63,042 bases of DNA, filler included, from Stramenopiles sp. TOSAG23-2 (GCA_900128395.1; 54 parts of 54 records of this genome joined end to end with filler, not necessarily neighbours in it), one strand, 5' to 3'. Counted from the whole stretch's first letter, positions 3,026 to 58,790 are shown. The notes: a model not told the origin generated them from the sequence alone. A program made the numbers and translations.

Positions 3026-3529
3026 ATTTAGAATTAATAGCAAAACAAATAATTATATAGTAGTTCCTATTACTCCCGAACAAATTACAATGGGACAAAA
3101 AAATAATACAGACGACTACTGTTTCAGAAATTGAAATCTGAAAATGAATGTGTATAGCAATTATACTATAGTGCACTATACTATACGGTATCATTATTAT
3201 TATTATTATTATTGTATAATAATATAAAAAAAAAAAAAAAAAAAGATACCGCCGCGTAGTTACTGTAGACCAGTATAATACTGCACTCTGGCACTCCTAG
3301 TGGCACTGGTACGAGTAGTAATAATAAAAAAATATAATACAATAAATAAAATATAATAATGTACCAAGTAGAATGTAGTAGAGTACCAGAGTACCTGATA
3401 TAATATAAGATGTGTACATACAGATAGANNNNNNNNNNNNNNNNNNNNNNNNNNNNNNNNNNNNNNNNNNNNTTAATTAATTAANNNNNNNNNNNNNNNN
3501 NNNNNNNNNNNNNNNNNNNNNNNNNNNNT

Positions 3530-5882: not shown

Positions 5883-6956
5883 AAGAAGCGGGAGAGAAAA
5901 CCCCCAAAGACGACGACGGGGACGACGGGGACGACGACGACGACGAATTTTGGTTTTGCATTCTTCGGAACGTTTCTGCAGTCGGACTGGTTTCAATCCT
6001 GGCTCGGACGGGTGATGATATACATGGTCGTTTTAGTCGTCGCGAGAACCCTGAGAAGCGTGGGCGAGAGAGGCCGGGATGGCGAAATGAGGAGAGGCTT
6101 TGGGGCGCTGAAAACGACGAAATCTGGTGGGGGTCGAATGTACGAAAACTACGGGAAATCGACGTGCGATGCGATTCGATGCGACTTTGCGAGAGCGCAG
6201 TTGAAAAGAATCACGCGGGAGGCGTTTCGAGGGACGGCGGTGAGCGCGTTCGAACAAATAGAAAGTAATGCGAGAGAAGGTAGTAAAAGTAGCAGAGTTG
6301 TAGAGAATGGTGGCTTTGACGGCTGGGAGAGCGAGATGGATTCGAACGCAAACAACAACAACAACAACAACAACAAACCTTTAGTTCTCGCTTTAGTCTC
6401 GGACGACCAGAGCGATTTCGATGCCATACTCAAACCAGGAAGCACGCTTAACCCGTTTAAAATGGCCGAAAAGAAAGGGTGTTTTAAGCGGTTAATAGTG
6501 AACGACCCGTACGAGAGTTCTTTGGTGACAATGAAAAACAAAAAGAAGAAACAGACGTCTTTCTCTTTGAACGACCCGAAAGAAATCGCCGAACGCAGAG
6601 GCGAGGTTCAAAAAGAACTCTCGCAATTCTTTCTAGAGTGCGGGAAGAAAATTGGCGGCGGCGTTGTTTACGTTCGCATGGCCAAACACATAAACGTCAA
6701 ATTGCTCCCGGCGTTACTCCCGGCCTTTTCCGAAAACGGTGGTTATACCCTCGATGGCGAGTTAGTCCCGTCGAAAGACTTTGTCTTCGTCCTCGAAGTG
6801 CTAAAACCAATCATCGAAAAATCCTCGGCGTTTAGCCGAGAGCGGAGCGAATACGCCAAGGCGTTGAAAAATGGCAACGAAGCCACGTTCACGCGAATCG
6901 TCAAAAGTAAACTCGCTTTTTACTGGGGAGTAGACGAGGAAGACGAATCGTTGTTG
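5883..6956 (+). CDS. Membrane-anchored degenerate AAA+/torsin-LAP1-like protein fragment on a compositionally foreign contig
   Basis: Open across the contig; one TM helix; C..GVVYV...LLPALL..FSENG...DG..V...DFVFVL resembles the torsin-like fold. Much higher GC and CpG than other contigs. Confidence 0.4.
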
Positions 6957-7056
6957 NNNNNNNNNNNNNNNNNNNNNNNNNNNNNNNNNNNNNNNNNNNN
7001 TTAATTAATTAANNNNNNNNNNNNNNNNNNNNNNNNNNNNNNNNNNNNNNNNNNNN

Positions 7057-8131
7057 GTTTTCATCTTTTCTATATAATTTCTCTCTTAAATAGTCACTCA
7101 AAGCAAGTGCTTTTGAGTCCGCATCTGCATCATCTAATAGGACAAACCCTGGTAGACGGACTCTAGGCCATAAATGCATATATTCAGCATTGTATACGGA
7201 TGTCGTGAATTGATCAAATTCATTCCATATATTATAAATAGTCATCGCTATTAAAATATAATACATGTACAACGAGGCGATATCTTGGGTTACACCATGG
7301 CGTTTGCCTATTTTACTTGGATCTCGAAATATTCTATATTGATGGACTTTTGATCGGGGATAGACAGCACCTGTAACATCAAATTCAACAGAGAAATGTG
7401 CAAGTGTAAATAAATCAAGCATGGATGGATTTACAAGGACAAATTCAACTACTACTACTCTGGTATTGGCATCAATGAAATTACACTTTTGCAACTTTTG
7501 CGATATTGCTTTGGCCTGTACGCCACTTTTTCCTAAACGTGGATCTGGTAATTCTGGGCTAAAACCACCACTTTGAATTTCCATTCCATCGAATGATATG
7601 CTGTAATAATCTTCTGTCTTTTCCTTACAATTGTTTCCTTTATCGGGCCTAGAACAATGGCGCTCCCCTTTTATAATTCCAATGCCATCGCAATATAAAT
7701 CATCCCAAGCAAGACTACTTCGTTTCGAGACTATTTCATTTTGTTTGTCTTCCTTTGTTAATTTATTGTAAAATTCATCATCACTTTTTGTAATATATGG
7801 ATACATACATTGACCATTATTTTTGCTATTCTTACCACCATATATTCCACTACATCTTCCTTTTAAATTGGAGCGAAGCTGCCTAATTCTAGGCCTACCA
7901 ACGATTCTACCAAATGTACTGACTGCGCCACGCATCCCTTTAGATGTTGTATTTTGTACTCTATACGGCAAAGCTTCGCCATACAAACCAGGCAACGCAA
8001 CGTTATCAAACCATTCATAAAATTCTTCTACGTTGGCTATGTCATTATAATTTAATGCCATGCCATCGCGAAATTCTTCATTGACAAACAATTCATTTGT
8101 TGCCCATTTGATATCGGACCAACGTTTATCG
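7057..8131 (-). CDS. Polycystin cation channel (PKD2/TRPP-like) TOP-domain fragment
   Basis: EFYEWF...LPGLY, IVGRPRIRQLRS, SGGF, LQKCNFIDANTRVVVVEFVLVNP, VEFDVTGAVYP. Confidence 0.85.
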
Positions 8132-11656: not shown

Positions 11657-11757
11657 NNNNNNNNNNNNNNNNNNNNNNNNNNNNNNNNNNNNNNNNNNNN
11701 TTAATTAATTAANNNNNNNNNNNNNNNNNNNNNNNNNNNNNNNNNNNNNNNNNNNNA

Positions 11758-12831
11758 TCAGATACTTGTAGTGATTGTCCAGTTGGTCGATTTGGTGTAA
11801 ATACAAATACAAATGTCACTGAGCATGATCAATTAGATGATTGTACGATATGTGGTGCAGGCAAATATAGCGAAAACGTAGCACAAACATCAGATACTTG
11901 TAGTGATTGTCCAGCTGGTACATTTGGTGTAAATAATAGTAATGTTGTAGGTGATCATGACGAAAAAGCTGATTGCACAACATGTAGTAGTGGTAAATAT
12001 CAAGGTGGGACCGGAGAAATTAGTTGTGAAGACTGTCCAGTTGGCAGATATCGAACAACTAATCTAACAAATGATAATCAAACTTGGAATGGCGACAATT
12101 TAAATGGAAATAATGCTGGAATGAATGCACTCACCGACTGTACGATATGTGGTGCAGGCAAATATAGTGAAAACGTAGCACAAACATCAGATACTTGTAG
12201 TGATTGTCCAGTTGGTCGATTTGGTGTAAATACAAATACAAATGTCACTGAGCATGATCAATTAGATGATTGTACGATATGTGGTGCAGGTAAATATAGT
12301 GAAAACGCAGCACAAACATCAGATACTTGTATAGTCTGTTCAGCTGGTACCTATTTACAAGATGACGCAAGCCCAACCGCAGATGAACATGACGACGCAA
12401 GCGATTGTCTTAATTGTCCAACTGGTACATACATGGATGTTGGTAATTCCGTTTCAACTGAACGTGATGATGCGAACGATTGTAAACAATGTGAAAAAGG
12501 TAAATACCAAGATATCGAAGCTCAAACATCATGTAACGTATGTGTAGCAGGTAAATATCGTGATACACCATTAATAAGCGTTGCGTATAATAGCACGGAT
12601 GGTAATGATGCAGATTTAGATGATTGTAAATTATGTCCAAAAGGTACATATTTAGAATTAGATCCAAACAATGATAGTAACGAAGAAGCGAGTGAACACG
12701 ATGAAGTCATAGATTGTAAAATATGTGGGGCTGGTAAATATATTGACGAAACTGGTAAGATTGCAGAGATTGATTGTAAACATTGTCCAACTGGCAAATA
12801 TTTAGAAGCTGATCCTGATACAAATGGTACC
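11758..12831 (+). CDS. Cys-rich repeat surface protein (GCC2/GCC3, ephrin-receptor-like CxxCxxGxY repeats), internal fragment
   Basis: Many CxxCxxG(K/T)Y units; near-identical nucleotide duplications of CTICGAGKYSEN.AQTSDTC. Confidence 0.85.
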
Positions 12832-27012: not shown

Positions 27013-27582
27013 CATGTTACGAATGAAGATGTAGATTTTGATGATGGTGATAATTATAATAGTAAAGAGATGAATAACGTTAAAAAGAAGAAAGATACTT
27101 TTTACCAACGATATAATGATCATAACGACGTTGCTGATGAAGTAAATTCTAAACGTATTTTGAAATTAAATAATGACGTACGTAATGTAAATGGTGAACG
27201 TGTTTCAAACGATGTTCTTCATTTGGATGAGAAGAATGTTGTATTTGATAATCGAATCAATATTGGAAATGGTAAGGGACGTGATTTGGAGGAAAGAAGA
27301 CTTAGGAATGATATTGGTCGATCGTTGGTAAGTGAATGGAATGAGGATTTAACATCTGGAACGTATATATTGTTACATGATGTGAAAATAACAGATACTG
27401 TTAAGGTTGAGGATGGTACATTGGACATTACTGGTATTGTTGGTGGCGATGGTAAACGACCAGCAATTGATGGTGGTGGTACCCCAGGCTGTAAAAGCAA
27501 TTGTCCTGGTTATAGAGTATTTGTTGTTGACCGTTCTGATCCCAAATTGATATTAACAAATTTGACGATCAAGAACGGCTGG
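27013..27582 (+). CDS. Exon encoding the start of a right-handed beta-helix (Pmp/pectin-lyase-like) domain, preceded by an RRL putative processing site
   Basis: LDITG....RPAIDGGG...YRVFVV...KLILTNLTIKNGW ends exactly at a phase-0 donor TGG|GTATGT. Confidence 0.75.
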
Positions 27583-27704
27583 GTATGTAGATATATATAT
27601 ATATTTCACTTTCAGATCATTTTTCAATAATGGTTTTCTTTATGTATCAAAGCAATTACTAACTGTTTCAATTATGTTATATTATGTTGTGAAAAAACGT
27701 GTAG

Positions 27705-27707
27705 GTT
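27705..27707 (+). CDS. 3-nt microexon (GTT, Val)
   Basis: acgtgtAG|GTT|GTAAGT; branch point TACTAAC at 27657. Confidence 0.65.
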
Positions 27708-27802
27708 GTAAGTAATTTTCAATACTGGTTATCTGTTTTCTTTACGTTTCAAACCAATTACTAACTGTTTCAATTATGTTATGTTATGAAAATCACGTGT
27801 AG

Positions 27803-27805
27803 AAT
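27803..27805 (+). CDS. 3-nt microexon (AAT, Asn)
   Basis: acgtgtAG|AAT|GTAAGT; branch point TACTAAC at 27759. Confidence 0.65.
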
Positions 27806-27905
27806 GTAAGTAGATTTCAATATTGATTGTCTGTTTTCTTTTATGTATCAATGCAATTACTAACGGCTTCAATTATGTTATGTTATGTTGTGAAAAAACG
27901 TGTAG

Positions 27906-27908
27906 GCT
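27906..27908 (+). CDS. 3-nt microexon (GCT, Ala)
   Basis: acgtgtAG|GCT|GTAAGT; branch point TACTAAC at 27858. Confidence 0.65.
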
Positions 27909-28008
27909 GTAAGTAGTTTTCAATACTTGTTGTCTATTTTCTTTATGTATCAAACCAATTACTAACTGTTTCAATTATGTTATATTATGTTATGAAAATC
28001 ACGTGTAG

Positions 28009-28011
28009 TAT
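28009..28011 (+). CDS. 3-nt microexon (TAT, Tyr)
   Basis: acgtgtAG|TAT|GTAAGT; branch point TACTAAC at 27960. Confidence 0.65.
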
Positions 28012-28611
28012 GTAAGTAGTTTTCAATATTGATTGTCTGTTTTCTTTTACGTATCAAACCAATTACTAACTGTTTCAATTATGTNNNNNNNNNNNNNNNN
28101 NNNNNNNNNNNNNNNNNNNNNNNNNNNNTTAATTAATTAANNNNNNNNNNNNNNNNNNNNNNNNNNNNNNNNNNNNNNNNNNNNGGTTGAACCGGAACGA
28201 GAATGTAATGAGAATGACATTTTCTTTTGGATTGATATATTATATATATATATACGAGTATGTATGTATCTCTATCTTGATACGAAATTATACAAAACGA
28301 TATATCTATATGCCTGTTTATATCTCTATAATATCTCTCTATCTTTTATAGGATATCTTTACTTTTGTATTGTGTTGTTTCTTCTTTCACTTTGTATTAA
28401 TATTGAAGGGTATATGTAAGAATAGCGTACTAATAGGTGCATATAAGCACATAAGCTGATTGATGATCTTTGAAAAAAAATAACTGTCACATTCTTTGAA
28501 ATGATGAAAAATATGAATTCATATAAGTACGCTATTTAGAATACACGTACCTCCTAGCAAAGACCTGAATTAATATAGGCCCCTGAACTTATAACACCCT
28601 TAAATTAAAAT

Positions 28612-29356: not shown

Positions 29357-30265
29357 CCAGTAATAAAAATGGTAAAATCAGCCCGTAACCATCAATCATT
29401 ATATGTTGAATGGGAAATGCCAATAGCCTTGAATACGAGCTTTATCAATACAATAAAAAATATTGTTTTAACACCATATAATGCAGAGACCAATGAGGAG
29501 GATTTGCTGGGCAAAACAAAGTTTCCAGCAAATGCCTCACATGGAATTACTAATCCGTTGTCAAATTTTATTTTTGACCAAGTTTATACATTGGCAATTC
29601 ATTACGAATATGTTACAAATGCACATAGTAATCCAACAAGGCCGTGGGCAAAAAACTGGAAAACAACGAAAGATTGTAGTGCTGATGATTTTTACTTAAA
29701 TATAGAGGGAACAGACATGATAGATAGTAAAAAATGGCTTTGTAAACCATGCCCTGAATTTGCTTCTTGTAAAGGGGCTGTAACAATAAATCAATTAAAA
29801 GCTAAATTTGGGTATTGGTCATTGAACAAAACGCAATATTATCAATGCTTGCAACCAAGTGCATGTTTAGGTGCTATAAATAAACGTTACATTGATCGCT
29901 TTCATGAAGCCAGAATTGAGCACAATGAGACATGCGCAACCTCTCTTGGTTTTCAAAACAACAGTCGTTTATGCGCATCTTGCGCTGCAAGCTTTGCAAG
30001 AGGAAATGGACTTGGTACATGTGTAAAATGCGAAAAAGATACAAATGTATTTGTTTTTTTCGCTGGTGTTCTCGTAGCCTCTATGGTTTTAATAATGCTC
30101 ATCAAAATTACAGTTTTTAAAAAAGTTAATATTGAAGAAGATGCGCAATTTCACCTACGGTGGGGTATCAAAAAAGAAGATCAAGTCCAATTTAGCGATG
30201 GCGTTAAGAAAATTGCGCTGTCATATTTACAGACAGTATTATTAGCAGCATCAATGAATGTCCCA
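29357..30265 (+). CDS. Large membrane receptor-like protein (FN3-like + Cys-rich + start of multi-TM region), fragment
   Basis: CKPCP..ASC.G.......K.GYW...C..PSAC.G...RLCASC...F.R....C.KC, then a TM helix and KIALSYLQ. Confidence 0.75.
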
Positions 30266-30427
30266 GATTCTCTACCAGCAAATTGAATCTTAACCTTTTT
30301 CGGGCCATTCGACCAGGCCGGATAAATACGAAAACCTGTGATACTATGTGATTTTTGTAAATCAAACAAAACCCAAGTATCCGAAGACATTTTTAAGTGC
30401 ACGCGAGTATCTAAATTACCATCAATT
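30262..30427 (-). CDS. F5/8 type C (discoidin-like) domain fragment, fused head-on to the preceding gene
   Basis: DGNLDT...WVLFDLQKSHSITGFRIYP...GPKKVKIQ. Confidence 0.6.
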
Positions 30428-32912: not shown

Positions 32913-33937
32913 ATGGGGCAAATTATTGATCGTGCATCGTCGCCATTGTTTCTAACAAATACGCAGAAAAAAGTGGAAGAGATTACACAAAATTGGACAG
33001 TAGAAACTATTGTTAGTGCTGCAAATGTTGCTAAGGTTAAATATTTCAATACTAGAAGAAACTATTCTTTAACCTTTGATGAGTTTATAACATTGCCATT
33101 TTTATTTTTGTACAGGCAACCAACCAATGAGAGTGAATCCATAGACAATTTAGAGCGCGTATGGGCTTTATTTGTTAATGGTGGTTTTGAAGATGATGAA
33201 ATTGATGAAGATACTGGTGAGATTATTTATCCAACATCTTGGAACAATGTACATATAGATGGTTTACAATTTTTTTCATCCATTTTATGGGTCTTACCAC
33301 GAAGAAGCGATGATCGCGATAAGCTTTTTGCAACATTCACTTTATTTGATTTTTCAAATCGTCAACAGCTAAGCGAAATTGAAGTAATTACATTGTTATC
33401 TTGTTGCTTAAGCGGGTTGCATATATTTACAGAAGGTTTTGTTTTATTGCCACGCGTTGATCACTTACAATTTATAGTCCAACATATTTTTGAAAATGTA
33501 AAAAAAGAATCATACTCCTCGTCCATAGATAAACATAATAATAAGAAAAAACAAACAAAACGTAACGCTACAACTCGTATTGATTATCCTTTGTTCGTTC
33601 AATATTATGATGAGATGGAACAAACATCTATAGATGCTCTCCTCTTAGCTGATGTTAAGTCCAACATATTTTTGAAAATGTAAAAAAAGAATCATACTCC
33701 TCGTCCATAGATAAACATAATAATAAGAAAAAACAAACAAAACGTAACGCTACAACTCGTATTGATTATCCTTTGTTCGTTCAATATTATGATGAGATGG
33801 AACAAACATCTATAGATGCTCTCCTCTTAGCTGATGTTATTCGAAAAACGCGTGAGCCGGGCGGGATGAAAGGTTCAGATAAATGGCAAGGAACACGAGA
33901 TTCATGGATGGAATCCTTTTTGTTTTCATCAATTGAG
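32913..33937 (+). CDS. EF-hand (calcineurin-B/NCS-like) protein, interrupted by a 182-bp tandem duplication
   Basis: MGQ start (possible myristoylation); DKLFATFTLFDFSNRQQLSEIEV EF-hand. Removing one repeat copy restores the frame. Confidence 0.65.
33476..33839. repeat. Exact 182-bp tandem duplication
   Basis: 33476-33657 = 33658-33839. Confidence 0.95.
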
Positions 33938-57240: not shown

Positions 57241-57730
57241 NNNNNNNNNNNNNNNNNNNNNNNNNNNNNNNNNNNNNNNNNNNNTTAATTAATTAANNNN
57301 NNNNNNNNNNNNNNNNNNNNNNNNNNNNNNNNNNNNNNNNAAGTGTGTATAAAATTAGGAGTAAAAATATACATCGAATAATATTCCCAAGAACTGCAAG
57401 CAAAAACAAACAAAATAAACGTACAACAAATACGTTCACAAACATATTAAAAAAAAAAAGGCAAACAAATACACGTATTGCAAACAATATAACCATGAGT
57501 ATCCCAACTATCATATTGACCCCGTCAATACAAAAAAATCTATAACAAAATAATGATGATAATAATAATAATAATAACGAAATTTCATCCCCAAGCACCA
57601 ACATCAACAACTCCACCACCAACAACAACAATAATAATAATAACAATGTCATATTACCACCATCATCCATACAAGCACCAATAGTAGCAACACCAACAAT
57701 AACATCATCAGCATCATCAACAACAACAAC

Positions 57731-58401
57731 TACAATAATACTATTGATGTACAAAGTATTGGTGAAGGATTAAAAGCAAACAATACATTAACGAAATTTT
57801 ACCTAGAGAATAATAATATTACTGATGTACAAAGTATTGGTGATGGATTAAAAACAAACAATACATTAACGAAATTGTACCTAGATAATAATAATATTAC
57901 TGATGTACAAAGTATTGGTGATGGATTAAAAGCAAACAATACATTAAAGTACTTGTACCTACATCGTAATAATATTACTGATGTACAAAGTATTGGTGAA
58001 GCATTAAAAACAAACAATACATTAACGAAATTGTACCTACATCGTAATAATATTACTGATGTACAAAGTATTGGTGAAGGATTAAAAACTAACAATACAT
58101 TAACGAAATTGTACCTACATCGTAATAATATTACTGATGTACAAAGTATTGGTGAAGGATTAAAAACTAACAATACATTAACGAAATTGTACCTACATCG
58201 TAATAATATTACTGATGTACAAAGTATTGGTGAAGGATTAAAAACTAACAATACATTAACGAAATTGTACCTACATCGTAATAATATTACTGATGTACAA
58301 AGTATTGGTGAAGGATTAAAAACTAACAATACATTAACGAAATTGTACCTACATCGTAATAATATTACTGATGTACAAAGTATTGGTGAAGGATTAAAAA
58401 C
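57731..58401 (+). CDS. RI-like/NLRC3-type leucine-rich repeat region built from 78-bp (26-aa) tandem units
   Basis: (NNITDVQSIGEGLKTNNTLTKLYLxx) x ~8.5; the later units are identical at DNA level. Confidence 0.9.
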
Positions 58402-58790
58402 NNNNNNNNNNNNNNNNNNNNNNNNNNNNNNNNNNNNNNNNNNNNTTAATTAATTAANNNNNNNNNNNNNNNNNNNNNNNNNNNNNNNNNNNNNNNNNNN
58501 NAATTTTATTAGAAGTTCTTAAAAATTGGCTGAGATATTGATGTTGGCATGGGGGAAATCTTTGTCGATTTGAGCCATATAATTATATTTTACTTCGTAT
58601 TTTTTACTTCATTAAACTCAACAACCCTTCAACATTTGCATCGCACATTACAGCCTGTTCTAATAAATTTTCATATGTATGGCAATGGCTTTCGTATATC
58701 TTTTGAAACACACCTTCCTTACATAATTTATATTCTGGGTCATCATCTAATGTCAATTTCAACTCATTATTATTATTATCATTTGTATTA

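What the first reader, a model, noticed from the sequence alone, without database searches (positions are those of the whole stretch)
27583..28084. Tandem array of single-codon (3-nt) microexons in a beta-helix surface protein: candidate splice-based diversification system
Seen: the exon ends ...LTNLTIKNGW at a phase-0 donor (27583). Five homologous ~95-122-bp units follow, each with GTA(A/T)GT and a perfect TACTAAC. The four complete units end in ACGTGTAG about 40 nt after the TACTAAC. Between each AG and the next GT there are exactly 3 nt, different every time (GTT Val, AAT Asn, GCT Ala, TAT Tyr; none a stop), while the flanking splice signals are invariant. Established: TACTAAC is the optimal U2 branch point, and strong branch points favour microexon inclusion. 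In Pmp/pectin-lyase-like beta-helix repeats, the residues after 'NLTIxNG' form the variable loop before GGA(I/V). Inference: any subset of these symmetric exons keeps frame, so the gene could build that loop one codon at a time by exon skipping or choice (at least 2^4 variants from the visible part). This recalls schistosome micro-exon genes or Dscam, but at single-amino-acid resolution and generated by intron tandem duplication. The array runs off the contig, so it may be longer.
Basis: partly seen in the sequence, partly recalled or inferred. Interest (0 to 1): 0.93.

Follow-up and report, generated by a model that had tools for sequence, protein, structure and literature searches.

The report
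Tandem mini-introns separated by single codons
A surface-protein gene of an uncultured marine protist carries a row of near-identical 100-base introns with exactly one codon between neighbours, which could build a protein loop one amino acid at a time, but no RNA read yet shows how it is spliced.

Summary
After the exon end ...LTNLTIKNGW (27582) come four complete intron-like units and one cut unit. Each has GTA(A/T)GT, a perfect TACTAAC and, in the complete units, ACGTGTAG. Neighbouring units are separated by exactly 3 nt: GTT, AAT, GCT, TAT. The window is a chain of ~1-kb contigs, and the array ends at a contig end. Two independent metagenome loci show the same layout. L001, a paralogue, has spacers GGT and CCT. 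L002 has CAA and GGT, then the predicted next exon GGGMYIQSG... in phase 0. Across 7 aligned units, the 16 splice-signal columns show 0 changes. The other intron columns average 0.35 changes. The first two spacer bases show 4 and 3 changes, more than any other column. The unit is 86% identical between paralogues whose exons share only 48% of amino acids. No dispersed copies, Rfam family or stable RNA fold were found. The splicing question stays open: RNA-library contigs cover only part of the exon, and no protein in the databases crosses the junction as a spliced form. Best reading (about 0.5): each unit is a separately excised intron that leaves a single-codon exon in a beta-helix loop. Combinatorial splicing is possible but untested.

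The parts
27016..27582 (+). Upstream coding exon, open from the contig start. It ends ...LILTNLTIKNGW in phase 0.
   Evidence: ORF listing. Homologues P0001, P0002, P0024, P0025 and P0028 are 76-85% identical and all read on into the same intron. RNA-library contigs of three studies lie on 27084-27489.
27583..27704 (+). Intron unit 1 (122 nt): GTATGT donor, TACTAAC at 27657, and the first AG after it is the TAG at 27702-27704.
27705..27707 (+). Spacer 1, GTT (Val if retained)
27708..27802 (+). Intron unit 2 (95 nt): GTAAGT, TACTAAC at 27759, ACGTGTAG
27803..27805 (+). Spacer 2, AAT (Asn if retained)
27806..27905 (+). Intron unit 3 (100 nt): GTAAGT, TACTAAC at 27858, ACGTGTAG
27906..27908 (+). 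Spacer 3, GCT (Ala if retained)
27909..28008 (+). Intron unit 4 (100 nt): GTAAGT, TACTAAC at 27960, ACGTGTAG
28009..28011 (+). Spacer 4, TAT (Tyr if retained). DNA contigs of run X2 also carry G at 28009, giving GAT.
28012..28084 (+). Intron unit 5, cut by the contig end 18 nt after its TACTAAC

Best explanation
A short spliceosomal intron sits at a conserved phase-0 position of a multigene family of large surface/membrane proteins. The position lies between the strand ...N-x-T-I-x-N-G-(W/Y) and the GGG(F/M)YI strand of a beta-solenoid. This intron has been tandemly duplicated together with one adjacent codon, probably the GGT that begins the next exon. The result is a row of complete ~100-nt introns: GTAAGT, then TACTAAC, then a first AG 38-43 nt downstream. 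Single in-frame NNT codons lie between them. I infer that the spliceosome pairs sites across each short unit (intron definition) and removes the units one by one. Each leaves its codon, so the loop before GGG is encoded one residue per unit: W-V-N-A-Y-... in the window. Loop length would then change by unequal crossing-over of units, and loop sequence by point changes in the spacers. Shown here: the anatomy, its recurrence in three assemblies and two paralogues, the frame, conservation of the internal splice signals, and excess change in the spacers. Inferred: separate excision of each unit and retention of the codons. Speculative: regulated or stochastic skipping that makes many isoforms.
For: (1) Anatomy and chance.
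(2) Independent recurrence. A metagenome scan with the branch-point 25-mer returned 2 loci, and both are arrays in the same gene family. L001 reads exon ...LTNITIQNGYA | first intron | GGT | unit | CCT | unit (cut). L002 reads unit | CAA | unit | GGT | unit | exon GGGMYIQSGH.... All 8 of 8 junctions have exactly 3 nt. A ninth triplet, GAT, appears in DNA contigs of run X2.
(3) In 8 of 8 complete units, the first AG after TACTAAC is the acceptor in front of the spacer or the exon.
(4) Selection signature from 7 aligned units and 99 non-spacer columns with 29 parsimony changes. The 16 signal columns (TACTAAC, TAG, GTAAGT) have 0 changes (P = 0.006 if changes fall uniformly). Spacer positions 1, 2 and 3 have 4, 3 and 1 changes, against 0.35 per column elsewhere and a maximum of 2. 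Poisson P(>=4) = 0.0005 and P(>=3) = 0.005. The spacer pair is the highest of 101 adjacent-column pairs, with a sum of 7 against a next best of 4. Gaps occur in 9 of 106 columns and in none of the spacer columns.
(5) The unit is 86% identical over 100 nt between the window and L001. Their exons share 48% amino-acid identity over 101 aa, and blastn aligns only a 73-nt block at 78%. The intron is therefore constrained or homogenised while the spacers are not.
(6) Frame. The upstream exon ends in phase 0 and the L002 exon starts in phase 0.
(7) Room in the protein. Family members with no intron at this site have 4, 9 and 12 residues between NG and GGG (P0015, P0020, P0026). In the AlphaFold model of P0026, this stretch (146-162) is the low-confidence gap between strands 144-146 and 164-166. 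A direct W-GGG joint would be shorter than any loop seen.
(8) Plausibility. In S. cerevisiae, synthetic pairs of short tandem introns are spliced, and 37 of 100 natural-intron pairs gave more than one isoform (passages of PMC8496845). Exons of 3 bp exist in animals (listing) and in schistosome MEGs (abstract of PMC10526429).
Against: No RNA evidence either way. The three RNA-library contigs laid cover 27084-27327, 27090-27247 and 27233-27489, and none reaches 27582. The tool also warns that DNA can be present in RNA libraries.
None of the proteins I fetched and read from the three word-index searches or the exhaustive HMMER search (17 of its 23 hits read) crosses the junction as a spliced form of an array-bearing gene.
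Absence of stops is not informative (P = 0.53 for 8 triplets).
The third spacer base is T in 7 of 8 junctions. It is the most conserved of the three, the opposite of a normal codon, so part of the pattern may reflect donor context rather than coding.
A 3-nt gap puts the acceptor inside the U1 footprint of the next donor. This is my own knowledge, not tested here. Internal sites might therefore be blocked.
The statistics rest on 7 related units from 3 loci, one alignment and one NJ tree. The first four triplets are the ones that prompted the hypothesis.
Homogenisation bounded by intron ends could mimic diversifying selection.
L002 is rearranged or chimeric just 5' of its array, so no single record shows exon-array-exon.
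Confidence: 0.5

Rival explanations
1. One composite intron. The whole array is an intronic minisatellite removed in a single step, or from any donor to the last acceptor. The internal splice sites look perfect only because the copies are young or homogenised, and the triplets never reach the mRNA.
For: The array has tandem head-to-tail structure with a two-unit higher-order period. Skipping everything also keeps the frame. There is no RNA proof of inclusion. A 3-nt exon is sterically awkward (own knowledge). L001's first intron contains an ordinary internal ~43-nt repeat with ACTAAC motifs but no AG/GT joints, so intronic repeats do arise in this family.
Against: A neutral satellite should diverge evenly. 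Instead, 16 signal columns have 0 of 29 changes (P = 0.006), and the two bases after each AG change about 10 times faster than other columns. The first AG after every branch point is the proposed acceptor in 8 of 8 units. With nearest-site pairing across short introns, leaving strong internal sites unused would need an extra mechanism. A W-GGG joint gives a shorter loop than any homologue shows.
Confidence: 0.3
2. A self-propagating or gene-converting intron that behaves like an introner within one gene family. The unit spreads or is copied between paralogues and next to itself. Its high conservation reflects recent copying, and the triplets are leftover target or junction bases of no coding significance.
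For: The unit is far better conserved than the flanking exon between paralogues: 86% nt identity against 48% aa identity. Many DNA contigs of run X2 (99 laid, most on the array) carry unit variants.
Against: blastn with word size 7 found no copy outside the arrays in the ~57 kb rest of the window, the other 14 kb of L002, or L001; the next best hit had E = 0.07. GTAAGT and TACTAAC are not enriched elsewhere in the window: 17 seen against 39 expected, and 7 against 13.6. The neighbouring triplets differ, so they are not target-site duplications. Independent insertions would not all fall exactly 3 nt apart. This reading is also compatible with the triplets being exonic.
Confidence: 0.12
3. Tandem introns that each host a small RNA, as in snoRNA host genes. 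The exons would then be irrelevant.
For: Tandem intron arrays of this kind exist: SNORD115/116 in SNHG14 (abstracts listed).
Against: The Rfam scan of the contig at E <= 10 gave only two chance-level rows (19.1 and 15.7 bits against gathering scores of 50). Four units fold no better than shuffles (z from +0.2 to +1.85; 112-198 of 200 shuffles fold at least as well). The host is a protein-coding gene with the frame preserved.
Confidence: 0.03
4. Assembly artefact of a fragmented, amplified single-cell or metagenome assembly.
For: The contig is only 1072 bp and ends inside the repeat. L002 has a suspicious inverted joint at its array.
Against: The same acceptor-3 nt-donor joints occur in three separately assembled records. 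DNA contigs of run X2 cover 29 of 30 bins of the contig. Proteins from further ENA assemblies read into the same first unit (P0024, P0025, P0029).
Confidence: 0.02

Closest known systems
Schistosome micro-exon genes (MEGs)
   Same: A series of symmetric (3n) very short exons, down to 3 bp, in genes for exposed proteins. Variation arises by exon choice (abstract of PMC10526429 and listing).
   Different: MEG exons range from 3 to 81 bp and are separated by long, unrelated introns (up to 5 kb), and nearly the whole small secreted protein is built from them. Here every exon is exactly 3 nt, the introns are ~100-nt tandem copies of one another, and the array fills one loop of a >1000-aa multidomain protein of a protist. 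Alternative use is not shown here.
Isolated 3-nt microexons of animals (e.g. Drosophila homothorax, human MAP4K5, RPS24)
   Same: A single codon flanked by an acceptor and a donor and retained in mRNA (titles and abstracts in the listing).
   Different: Those are single exons between long introns. As I recall, in vertebrates they depend on dedicated enhancers. None is described as a tandem array with duplicated introns. Searches found no such case.
Intron gain by tandem duplication, and introns from tandem arrays (Zhuo et al. 2007 PNAS)
   Same: Tandem duplication creates new, adjacent splice-site pairs, so a repeat array can yield several introns.
   Different: In the AGGT model an exon segment is duplicated and becomes an intron. 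Here a whole existing intron plus 3 nt is duplicated. I saw the Zhuo paper only as a reference entry because it is not held. Its content, and the later criticism that RT template switching on repeats can fake such splicing, are recalled.
Introners / introner-like elements
   Same: Families of near-identical short introns with strong signals, known from marine protists and fungi (listing).
   Different: Introners are dispersed through many unrelated genes. This unit was found only in arrays at one intron position of one gene family, and no target duplication is present.
Recursive splicing at AG|GT ratchet points; NAGNAG tandem acceptors
   Same: Closely apposed acceptor and donor signals, stepwise removal of intronic sequence, and single-codon differences in the product. 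These points are recalled, not tested.
   Different: Ratchet points have no nucleotides between AG and GT and leave nothing behind. Here 3 nt intervene, and only 3 of 8 triplets (GTT, GGT, GGT) could even begin with a G needed to rebuild a donor at the new joint.

Membership tests
U2-type spliceosomal intron (each unit) | 5' GT donor that matches the consensus | tested here: met
   The first unit has GTATGT. GTAAGTA is invariant at 8 of 8 internal junctions.
U2-type spliceosomal intron (each unit) | Branch-point motif followed by an AG-free stretch up to the acceptor AG | tested here: met
   TACTAAC is present in all units of the window and L002 and in the complete array unit of L001. The first downstream AG is the acceptor in 8 of 8 units, 25-43 nt away.
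U2-type spliceosomal intron (each unit) | Absent from mature mRNA, with exons joined at GT/AG | not testable with these tools
   The one read-laying run gave RNA-library contigs only on 27084-27489. No junction-spanning protein was found.
Microexon (exon of 30 nt or less retained in mRNA) | Flanked by a functional acceptor and donor, with length a multiple of 3 and no stop | tested here: met
   All 8 of 8 spacers are 3 nt and none is a stop. The absence of stops is not significant.
Microexon (exon of 30 nt or less retained in mRNA) | Present in mature transcripts | not testable with these tools
   Same limits as above.
Schistosome-type micro-exon gene | Most of a small secreted protein is encoded by microexons separated by long introns | tested here: not met
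   The introns are 95-122 nt. The host is a >1000-aa protein with Ephrin_rec_like repeats and a multi-pass membrane region.
Introner / introner-like element | Many dispersed near-identical copies in unrelated genes | tested here: not met
   No copy was found outside the arrays in the window, L001 and L002, about 72 kb in all. The sample is small.
Neutral intronic minisatellite | Head-to-tail repeats whose columns diverge at a similar rate | tested here: not met
   The array is tandem, but the signal columns have 0 of 29 changes and the spacer columns 4 and 3 changes, against a mean of 0.35.
snoRNA-hosting tandem introns | A structured small RNA with box motifs inside each intron | tested here: not met
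   No Rfam match near a gathering score. Fold z-scores are from +0.2 to +1.85.
Recursive splice site | AG directly abutting GT (zero-length exon) | tested here: not met
   Three nucleotides intervene at 8 of 8 junctions.
Chlamydial Pmp repeat / right-handed beta-helix (host protein) | A match to Chlam_PMP or Beta_helix profiles, or a beta-helix fold | tested here: inconclusive
   No Chlam_PMP hit appeared for P0026 and P0015 at E <= 10, or for P0020 and the L002 exon at E <= 0.01. Beta_helix PF13229 scored E = 3.6e-4 in P0015, below its cut-off. The AlphaFold model of P0026 has mean pLDDT 49.9, with repeat blocks between residues 160 and 350 at 72-91. Foldseek found nothing at E <= 0.001. The top long matches are beta-helix enzymes: PL6 alginate lyase at E = 7.9e-3, AlgG and the P22 tailspike.

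The most novel reading that the evidence does not exclude
The array is a splice-level diversity generator. All donors, branch points and acceptors are equivalent and every exon is one codon, so stochastic or regulated pairing of any donor with any later acceptor would give a cell population many in-frame variants of one exposed beta-helix loop, differing in length and sequence. Unequal crossing-over and fast change of the codons would renew the repertoire over generations. This would be the first system that assembles a protein loop one amino acid per exon from tandemly duplicated introns.
Probability: 0.15. Interest if true: 0.95.

Novelty: new variant of a known kind. Interest (0 to 1): 0.74.

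Why it matters
If the triplets are retained, this would be the densest exon-intron packing I know of: one codon per ~100 nt intron, repeated. It would also be a natural experiment on the lower limit of exon size under intron definition. It would show a simple route by which intron duplication adds residues to a protein one at a time. A surface-protein family of an abundant uncultured marine protist could then vary a loop through array length, spacer mutation and possibly splice choice. The pattern found here makes this directly testable with a few junction-spanning reads: internal splice signals frozen, the two bases after each AG changing about 10 times faster than the intron, and the intron better conserved than the exon. 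If the triplets are not retained, the array is still an unusual case of strong decoy splice sites that must be ignored.

Tried and rejected
Whole-genome access: none is held for this window. The record behind L002 is not held either.
RNA test: the single sequencing-run run and the single read-laying run (runs X15, X16, X20 RNA and X2 DNA; min_likeness 90) gave one RNA-library contig per run. All three lie inside the exon and none reaches 27582. The array has no RNA cover, which under the tool's own rules proves nothing. Summed DNA depth over the array (up to 887) against the exon (9-90) is not a copy number and is not used as evidence.
Protein searches for spliced forms: the 189-aa exon with 'longer' gave 3 hits. 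Two read into the intron and one is an intron-less genomic paralogue. The last 90 aa of the exon gave 5 hits, all intron read-through. The first 90 aa of the L002 exon gave 11 hits; I fetched 8, and all 8 start at the Met of GGGMYI. The exhaustive HMMER search gave 23 hits, of which I fetched 17. Only P0015 and P0020 cross the site, and neither is shown to derive from an array-bearing gene.
More loci: genome contigs gave 0 hits by pattern and 0 relatives by protein. Viral contigs gave one 21-mer hit, L003, which lies in unrelated coding-looking DNA with no unit homology and was rejected as chance. It gave 0 relatives by protein.
Small-RNA idea: rejected.
Pmp membership: not supported.
Structure: the P0026 model is poor overall, so I use it only for the position of the loop. 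Fold matches are weak.
Literature: Zhuo et al. 2007 is not held. Searches for tandem arrays of 3-nt exons or tandemly duplicated introns with microexons returned no such case. That shows only that nothing turned up in the held library. Supplementary files were not consulted.

Full report
WHAT THE WINDOW IS. The 63-kb window is not one stretch of genome. It is 54 contigs of about 1.06-1.08 kb (one with an internal gap) joined by N/TTAATTAATTAA spacers. The finding lies in the 1072-bp contig 27013-28084. The DNA is AT-rich, about 24-50% G+C per contig. Its ORFs are eukaryotic in style, with Asn-rich low-complexity runs, Cys-rich CxxC...G.Y repeats and LRRs. Eleven contigs are open in one frame from end to end, so introns seem sparse. 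No whole genome is held. The runs that hold the contig are marine or seawater metagenomes, plus one small run that is probably the source.

THE OBSERVATION. It is confirmed as described. The exon is open from the contig start and ends AAG AAC GGC TGG (..IKNGW) at 27582. Then follow unit 1 (27583-27704, GTATGT donor), GTT, unit 2 (27708-27802), AAT, unit 3 (27806-27905), GCT, unit 4 (27909-28008), TAT, and unit 5 (28012-28084, cut by the contig end). Every unit has TACTAAC, and the four complete ones end ACGTGTAG. The composite pattern occurs 4 times, against 0.01 expected. The branch-point 25-mer occurs 5 times, only here. TRF finds periods of 102 (84% matches) and 201 (90%), so two subtypes alternate. 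GTT/GCT and AAT/TAT are therefore paired copies that differ at one base each.

INDEPENDENT COPIES. One scan of metagenome contigs with the branch-point 25-mer returned two loci, and both are arrays in the same gene family.
- L001 (1578 bp, gene on the minus strand) encodes a paralogous exon ending ..LTNITIQNGYA. It is 48% identical over 101 aa. A longer first intron follows, then TGTGTAG-GGT-GTAAGT, a unit, CGTGTAG-CCT-GTAAGT, and a unit cut by the contig end.
- L002 (14.7 kb) holds the 3' end of an array: unit-CAA-unit-GGT-unit. The last unit ends ..TTATATAATAG and is followed in phase 0 by GGT GGT GGG ATG TAC.., i.e. GGGMYIQSGHVTIVNSHFADNTA.. This exon is a 733-aa ORF with Ephrin_rec_like repeats (E = 2.9e-9) and a multi-pass membrane region.
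- In all, 8 of 8 junctions have exactly 3 nt and none is a stop. DNA contigs of run X2 add a ninth triplet, GAT (28009 T>G). They also carry a loose end after 27791 reading GGGTGGTGGTT, which I read as another terminal unit running into a GGT GGT GGT exon.
- Caveat: just 5' of its array, L002 joins an inverted segment. This is a minus-strand ORF that begins with the family's cytoplasmic-tail motif and continues into an OTU-like domain. L002 is therefore rearranged or chimeric there, and no single record shows exon-array-exon.

THE HOST PROTEIN. The exhaustive HMMER search found 23 relatives. Of the 17 I fetched, all but P0015 and P0020 are genomic ORFs that read straight into an intron right after NG(Y/W/F/H), sometimes one residue later. 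The intron position is therefore conserved across the family.
- Three members cross the site without an intron. P0015 reads NG-NAGN-GGGFSI, from a 14-kb contig. P0020 reads NG-RSPGIHSGN-GGGFYI; it is a EukProt gene model, g3014.t1. P0026 reads NGF-GRYLSLYNEAR-GGGFYI; it is genomic, because it reads into a later intron just as L002 does.
- P0026 has seven GGG(F)YI..N-x-(T/A) coils, and L002's exon aligns from its last coil onward, at residue 335, with 75% identity.
- Pfam gives no Chlam_PMP hit and only a sub-threshold Beta_helix hit in P0015.
- An AlphaFold model of P0026 is poor overall (pLDDT 49.9), but repeat blocks between residues 160 and 350 reach 72-91. The stretch 146-162, which is the array position, is a low-confidence gap between two strands.
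- Foldseek finds nothing at E <= 0.001. The best long matches are right-handed beta-helix enzymes.
- So 'beta-solenoid with a variable turn at this site' is reasonable, and 'Pmp-like' is not shown.

IS IT MORE THAN A SATELLITE?
- I aligned 7 junction-centred units (4 from the window, 2 from L002, 1 cut unit from L001). I counted parsimony changes on a tree built without the spacer columns.
- The 99 non-spacer columns carry 29 changes. The 16 signal columns (TACTAAC, TAG, GTAAGT) carry none (P = 0.006 if changes fall evenly). Other intron columns average 0.35 changes, and none has more than 2.
- Spacer positions 1, 2 and 3 have 4, 3 and 1 changes. Poisson P is 0.0005 for 4 or more and 0.005 for 3 or more. 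The spacer pair is the top of 101 adjacent pairs, with 7 against 4. Gaps occur in 9 of 106 columns but never in the spacer.
- In 8 of 8 complete units, the first AG after the branch point is the proposed acceptor.
- Between the window and L001, the unit is 86% identical over 100 nt, while the exons are mostly too diverged for blastn (one 73-nt block at 78%).
- These three facts do not fit a neutrally decaying repeat: internal signals frozen, the two bases after each AG changing fastest, and the intron better kept than the exon. They do fit units whose splice sites are used and triplets that are either free or selected to differ.
- Weak points: few and related units, one alignment, and a hypothesis prompted by four of the triplets. 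The third base is T in 7 of 8 junctions, which looks more like donor context than codon behaviour. Absence of stops means nothing (P = 0.53 for 8).

RIVALS TESTED.
- Dispersed mobile intron: sensitive blastn finds no unit outside the arrays in about 72 kb, and GTAAGT and TACTAAC are not enriched elsewhere. The triplets are not target duplications.
- Small-RNA host: no Rfam match near threshold, and the units fold worse than shuffles.
- Artefact: three assemblies and further ENA-derived proteins (P0024, P0025, P0029) share the structure.
- Single composite intron: not excluded.

THE MISSING PIECE. RNA-library contigs from three studies lie on 27084-27327, 27090-27247 and 27233-27489. All three word-index protein searches returned only genomic read-through forms or intron-less paralogues.

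MECHANISM PROPOSED. Shown: the anatomy, recurrence, frame and selection signature. Inferred: intron-definition splicing removes each ~100-nt unit separately, 5' to 3', and leaves one NNT codon per unit. The turn before GGG would then read W-V-N-A-Y-... in the window, YA-G-P-... in L001 and ...-Q-G-GGG in L002. The origin is most simply a duplication of 'intron + first GGT of the next exon', because GGT is the triplet seen twice and the exon starts GGT GGT. Unequal crossing-over would then follow, consistent with the two-unit period. Yeast data show that tandem short strong introns are spliced and often give several isoforms: 37 of 100 natural pairs (passages of PMC8496845). Some skipping is therefore plausible but untested here.

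COMPARISON AND NOVELTY. Single 3-nt exons are known (listing). Schistosome MEGs have series of symmetric exons of 3-81 bp, but with long unrelated introns (abstract). Tandem duplication can create introns; Zhuo 2007 was seen only as a reference entry. Introners are dispersed. A tandem array of duplicated mini-introns, each followed by one codon, did not turn up in three searches. I rate it a new variant of known kinds, of high interest. The structure is secure and the splicing outcome is open.

Noticed in passing
window 1-63042: The window is a concatenation of 54 contigs of about 1.06-1.08 kb, sorted by length and joined by N/TTAATTAATTAA linkers. Neighbouring 'genes' are therefore not neighbours in the genome.
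   Followed up: yes
L002 2441-3424 (minus strand) and the joint near 3385-3400: The array in L002 abuts an inverted segment. This is a minus-strand ORF that starts with the family's cytoplasmic-tail motif (..RSDESVMQRRESYVEM, also at about 6480 on the plus strand) and continues into an OTU-protease-like region (..APDGDCAYHSI.., ..HYDWL). It looks like an amplification chimera or a real rearrangement, with a few bases of microhomology at the joint.
   Followed up: partly
L002 6640-8050: Downstream of the gene's stop lie several decayed tandem copies of its last exon or tail. One ~120-bp segment is repeated three times around 6890-7260, and further ..CCCF.DK.SDE..RESYVEM tails follow. This suggests repeated partial 3'-end duplications in this family.
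   Followed up: no
L001 about 140-390 (gene strand = minus): The first intron of the L001 paralogue is about 250 nt long. It contains its own internal ~43-nt repeat with ACTAAC-like motifs, without AG/GT joints. It also has an AG...GTATGT pair 24 nt apart that would make an in-frame, stop-free mini-exon.
   Followed up: no
window 29357-30286: Another contig encodes the C-terminal part (Cys-rich module plus first membrane helices) of a paralogue of the same family: 36% identical to P0026 residues 648-895 by tblastn.
   Followed up: partly
window 27151-27278 (run X2, record 7): One 331-nt DNA contig joins the middle of the upstream exon directly to sequence like the ..VNSHFADNT.. part of the downstream exon. 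It may be a deletion paralogue, a pseudogene or a chimeric unitig.
   Followed up: no
window 33476-33839: A perfect 182-bp direct tandem duplication (2.0 copies, 100% matches), partly inside an ORF. It could be a real recent duplication or an assembly artefact.
   Followed up: no
window 57644-58453: A near-perfect tandem array of 28-residue leucine-rich repeats (..NNITDVQSIGEGLKTNNTLTKLYLHR..) fills a whole contig.
   Followed up: no
window 11757-12831: A contig made entirely of Cys-rich C..C..G.Y repeats, with a 132-bp period. The motif looks like the Ephrin_rec_like repeats Pfam found in the L002 exon; this contig itself was not scanned.
   Followed up: no
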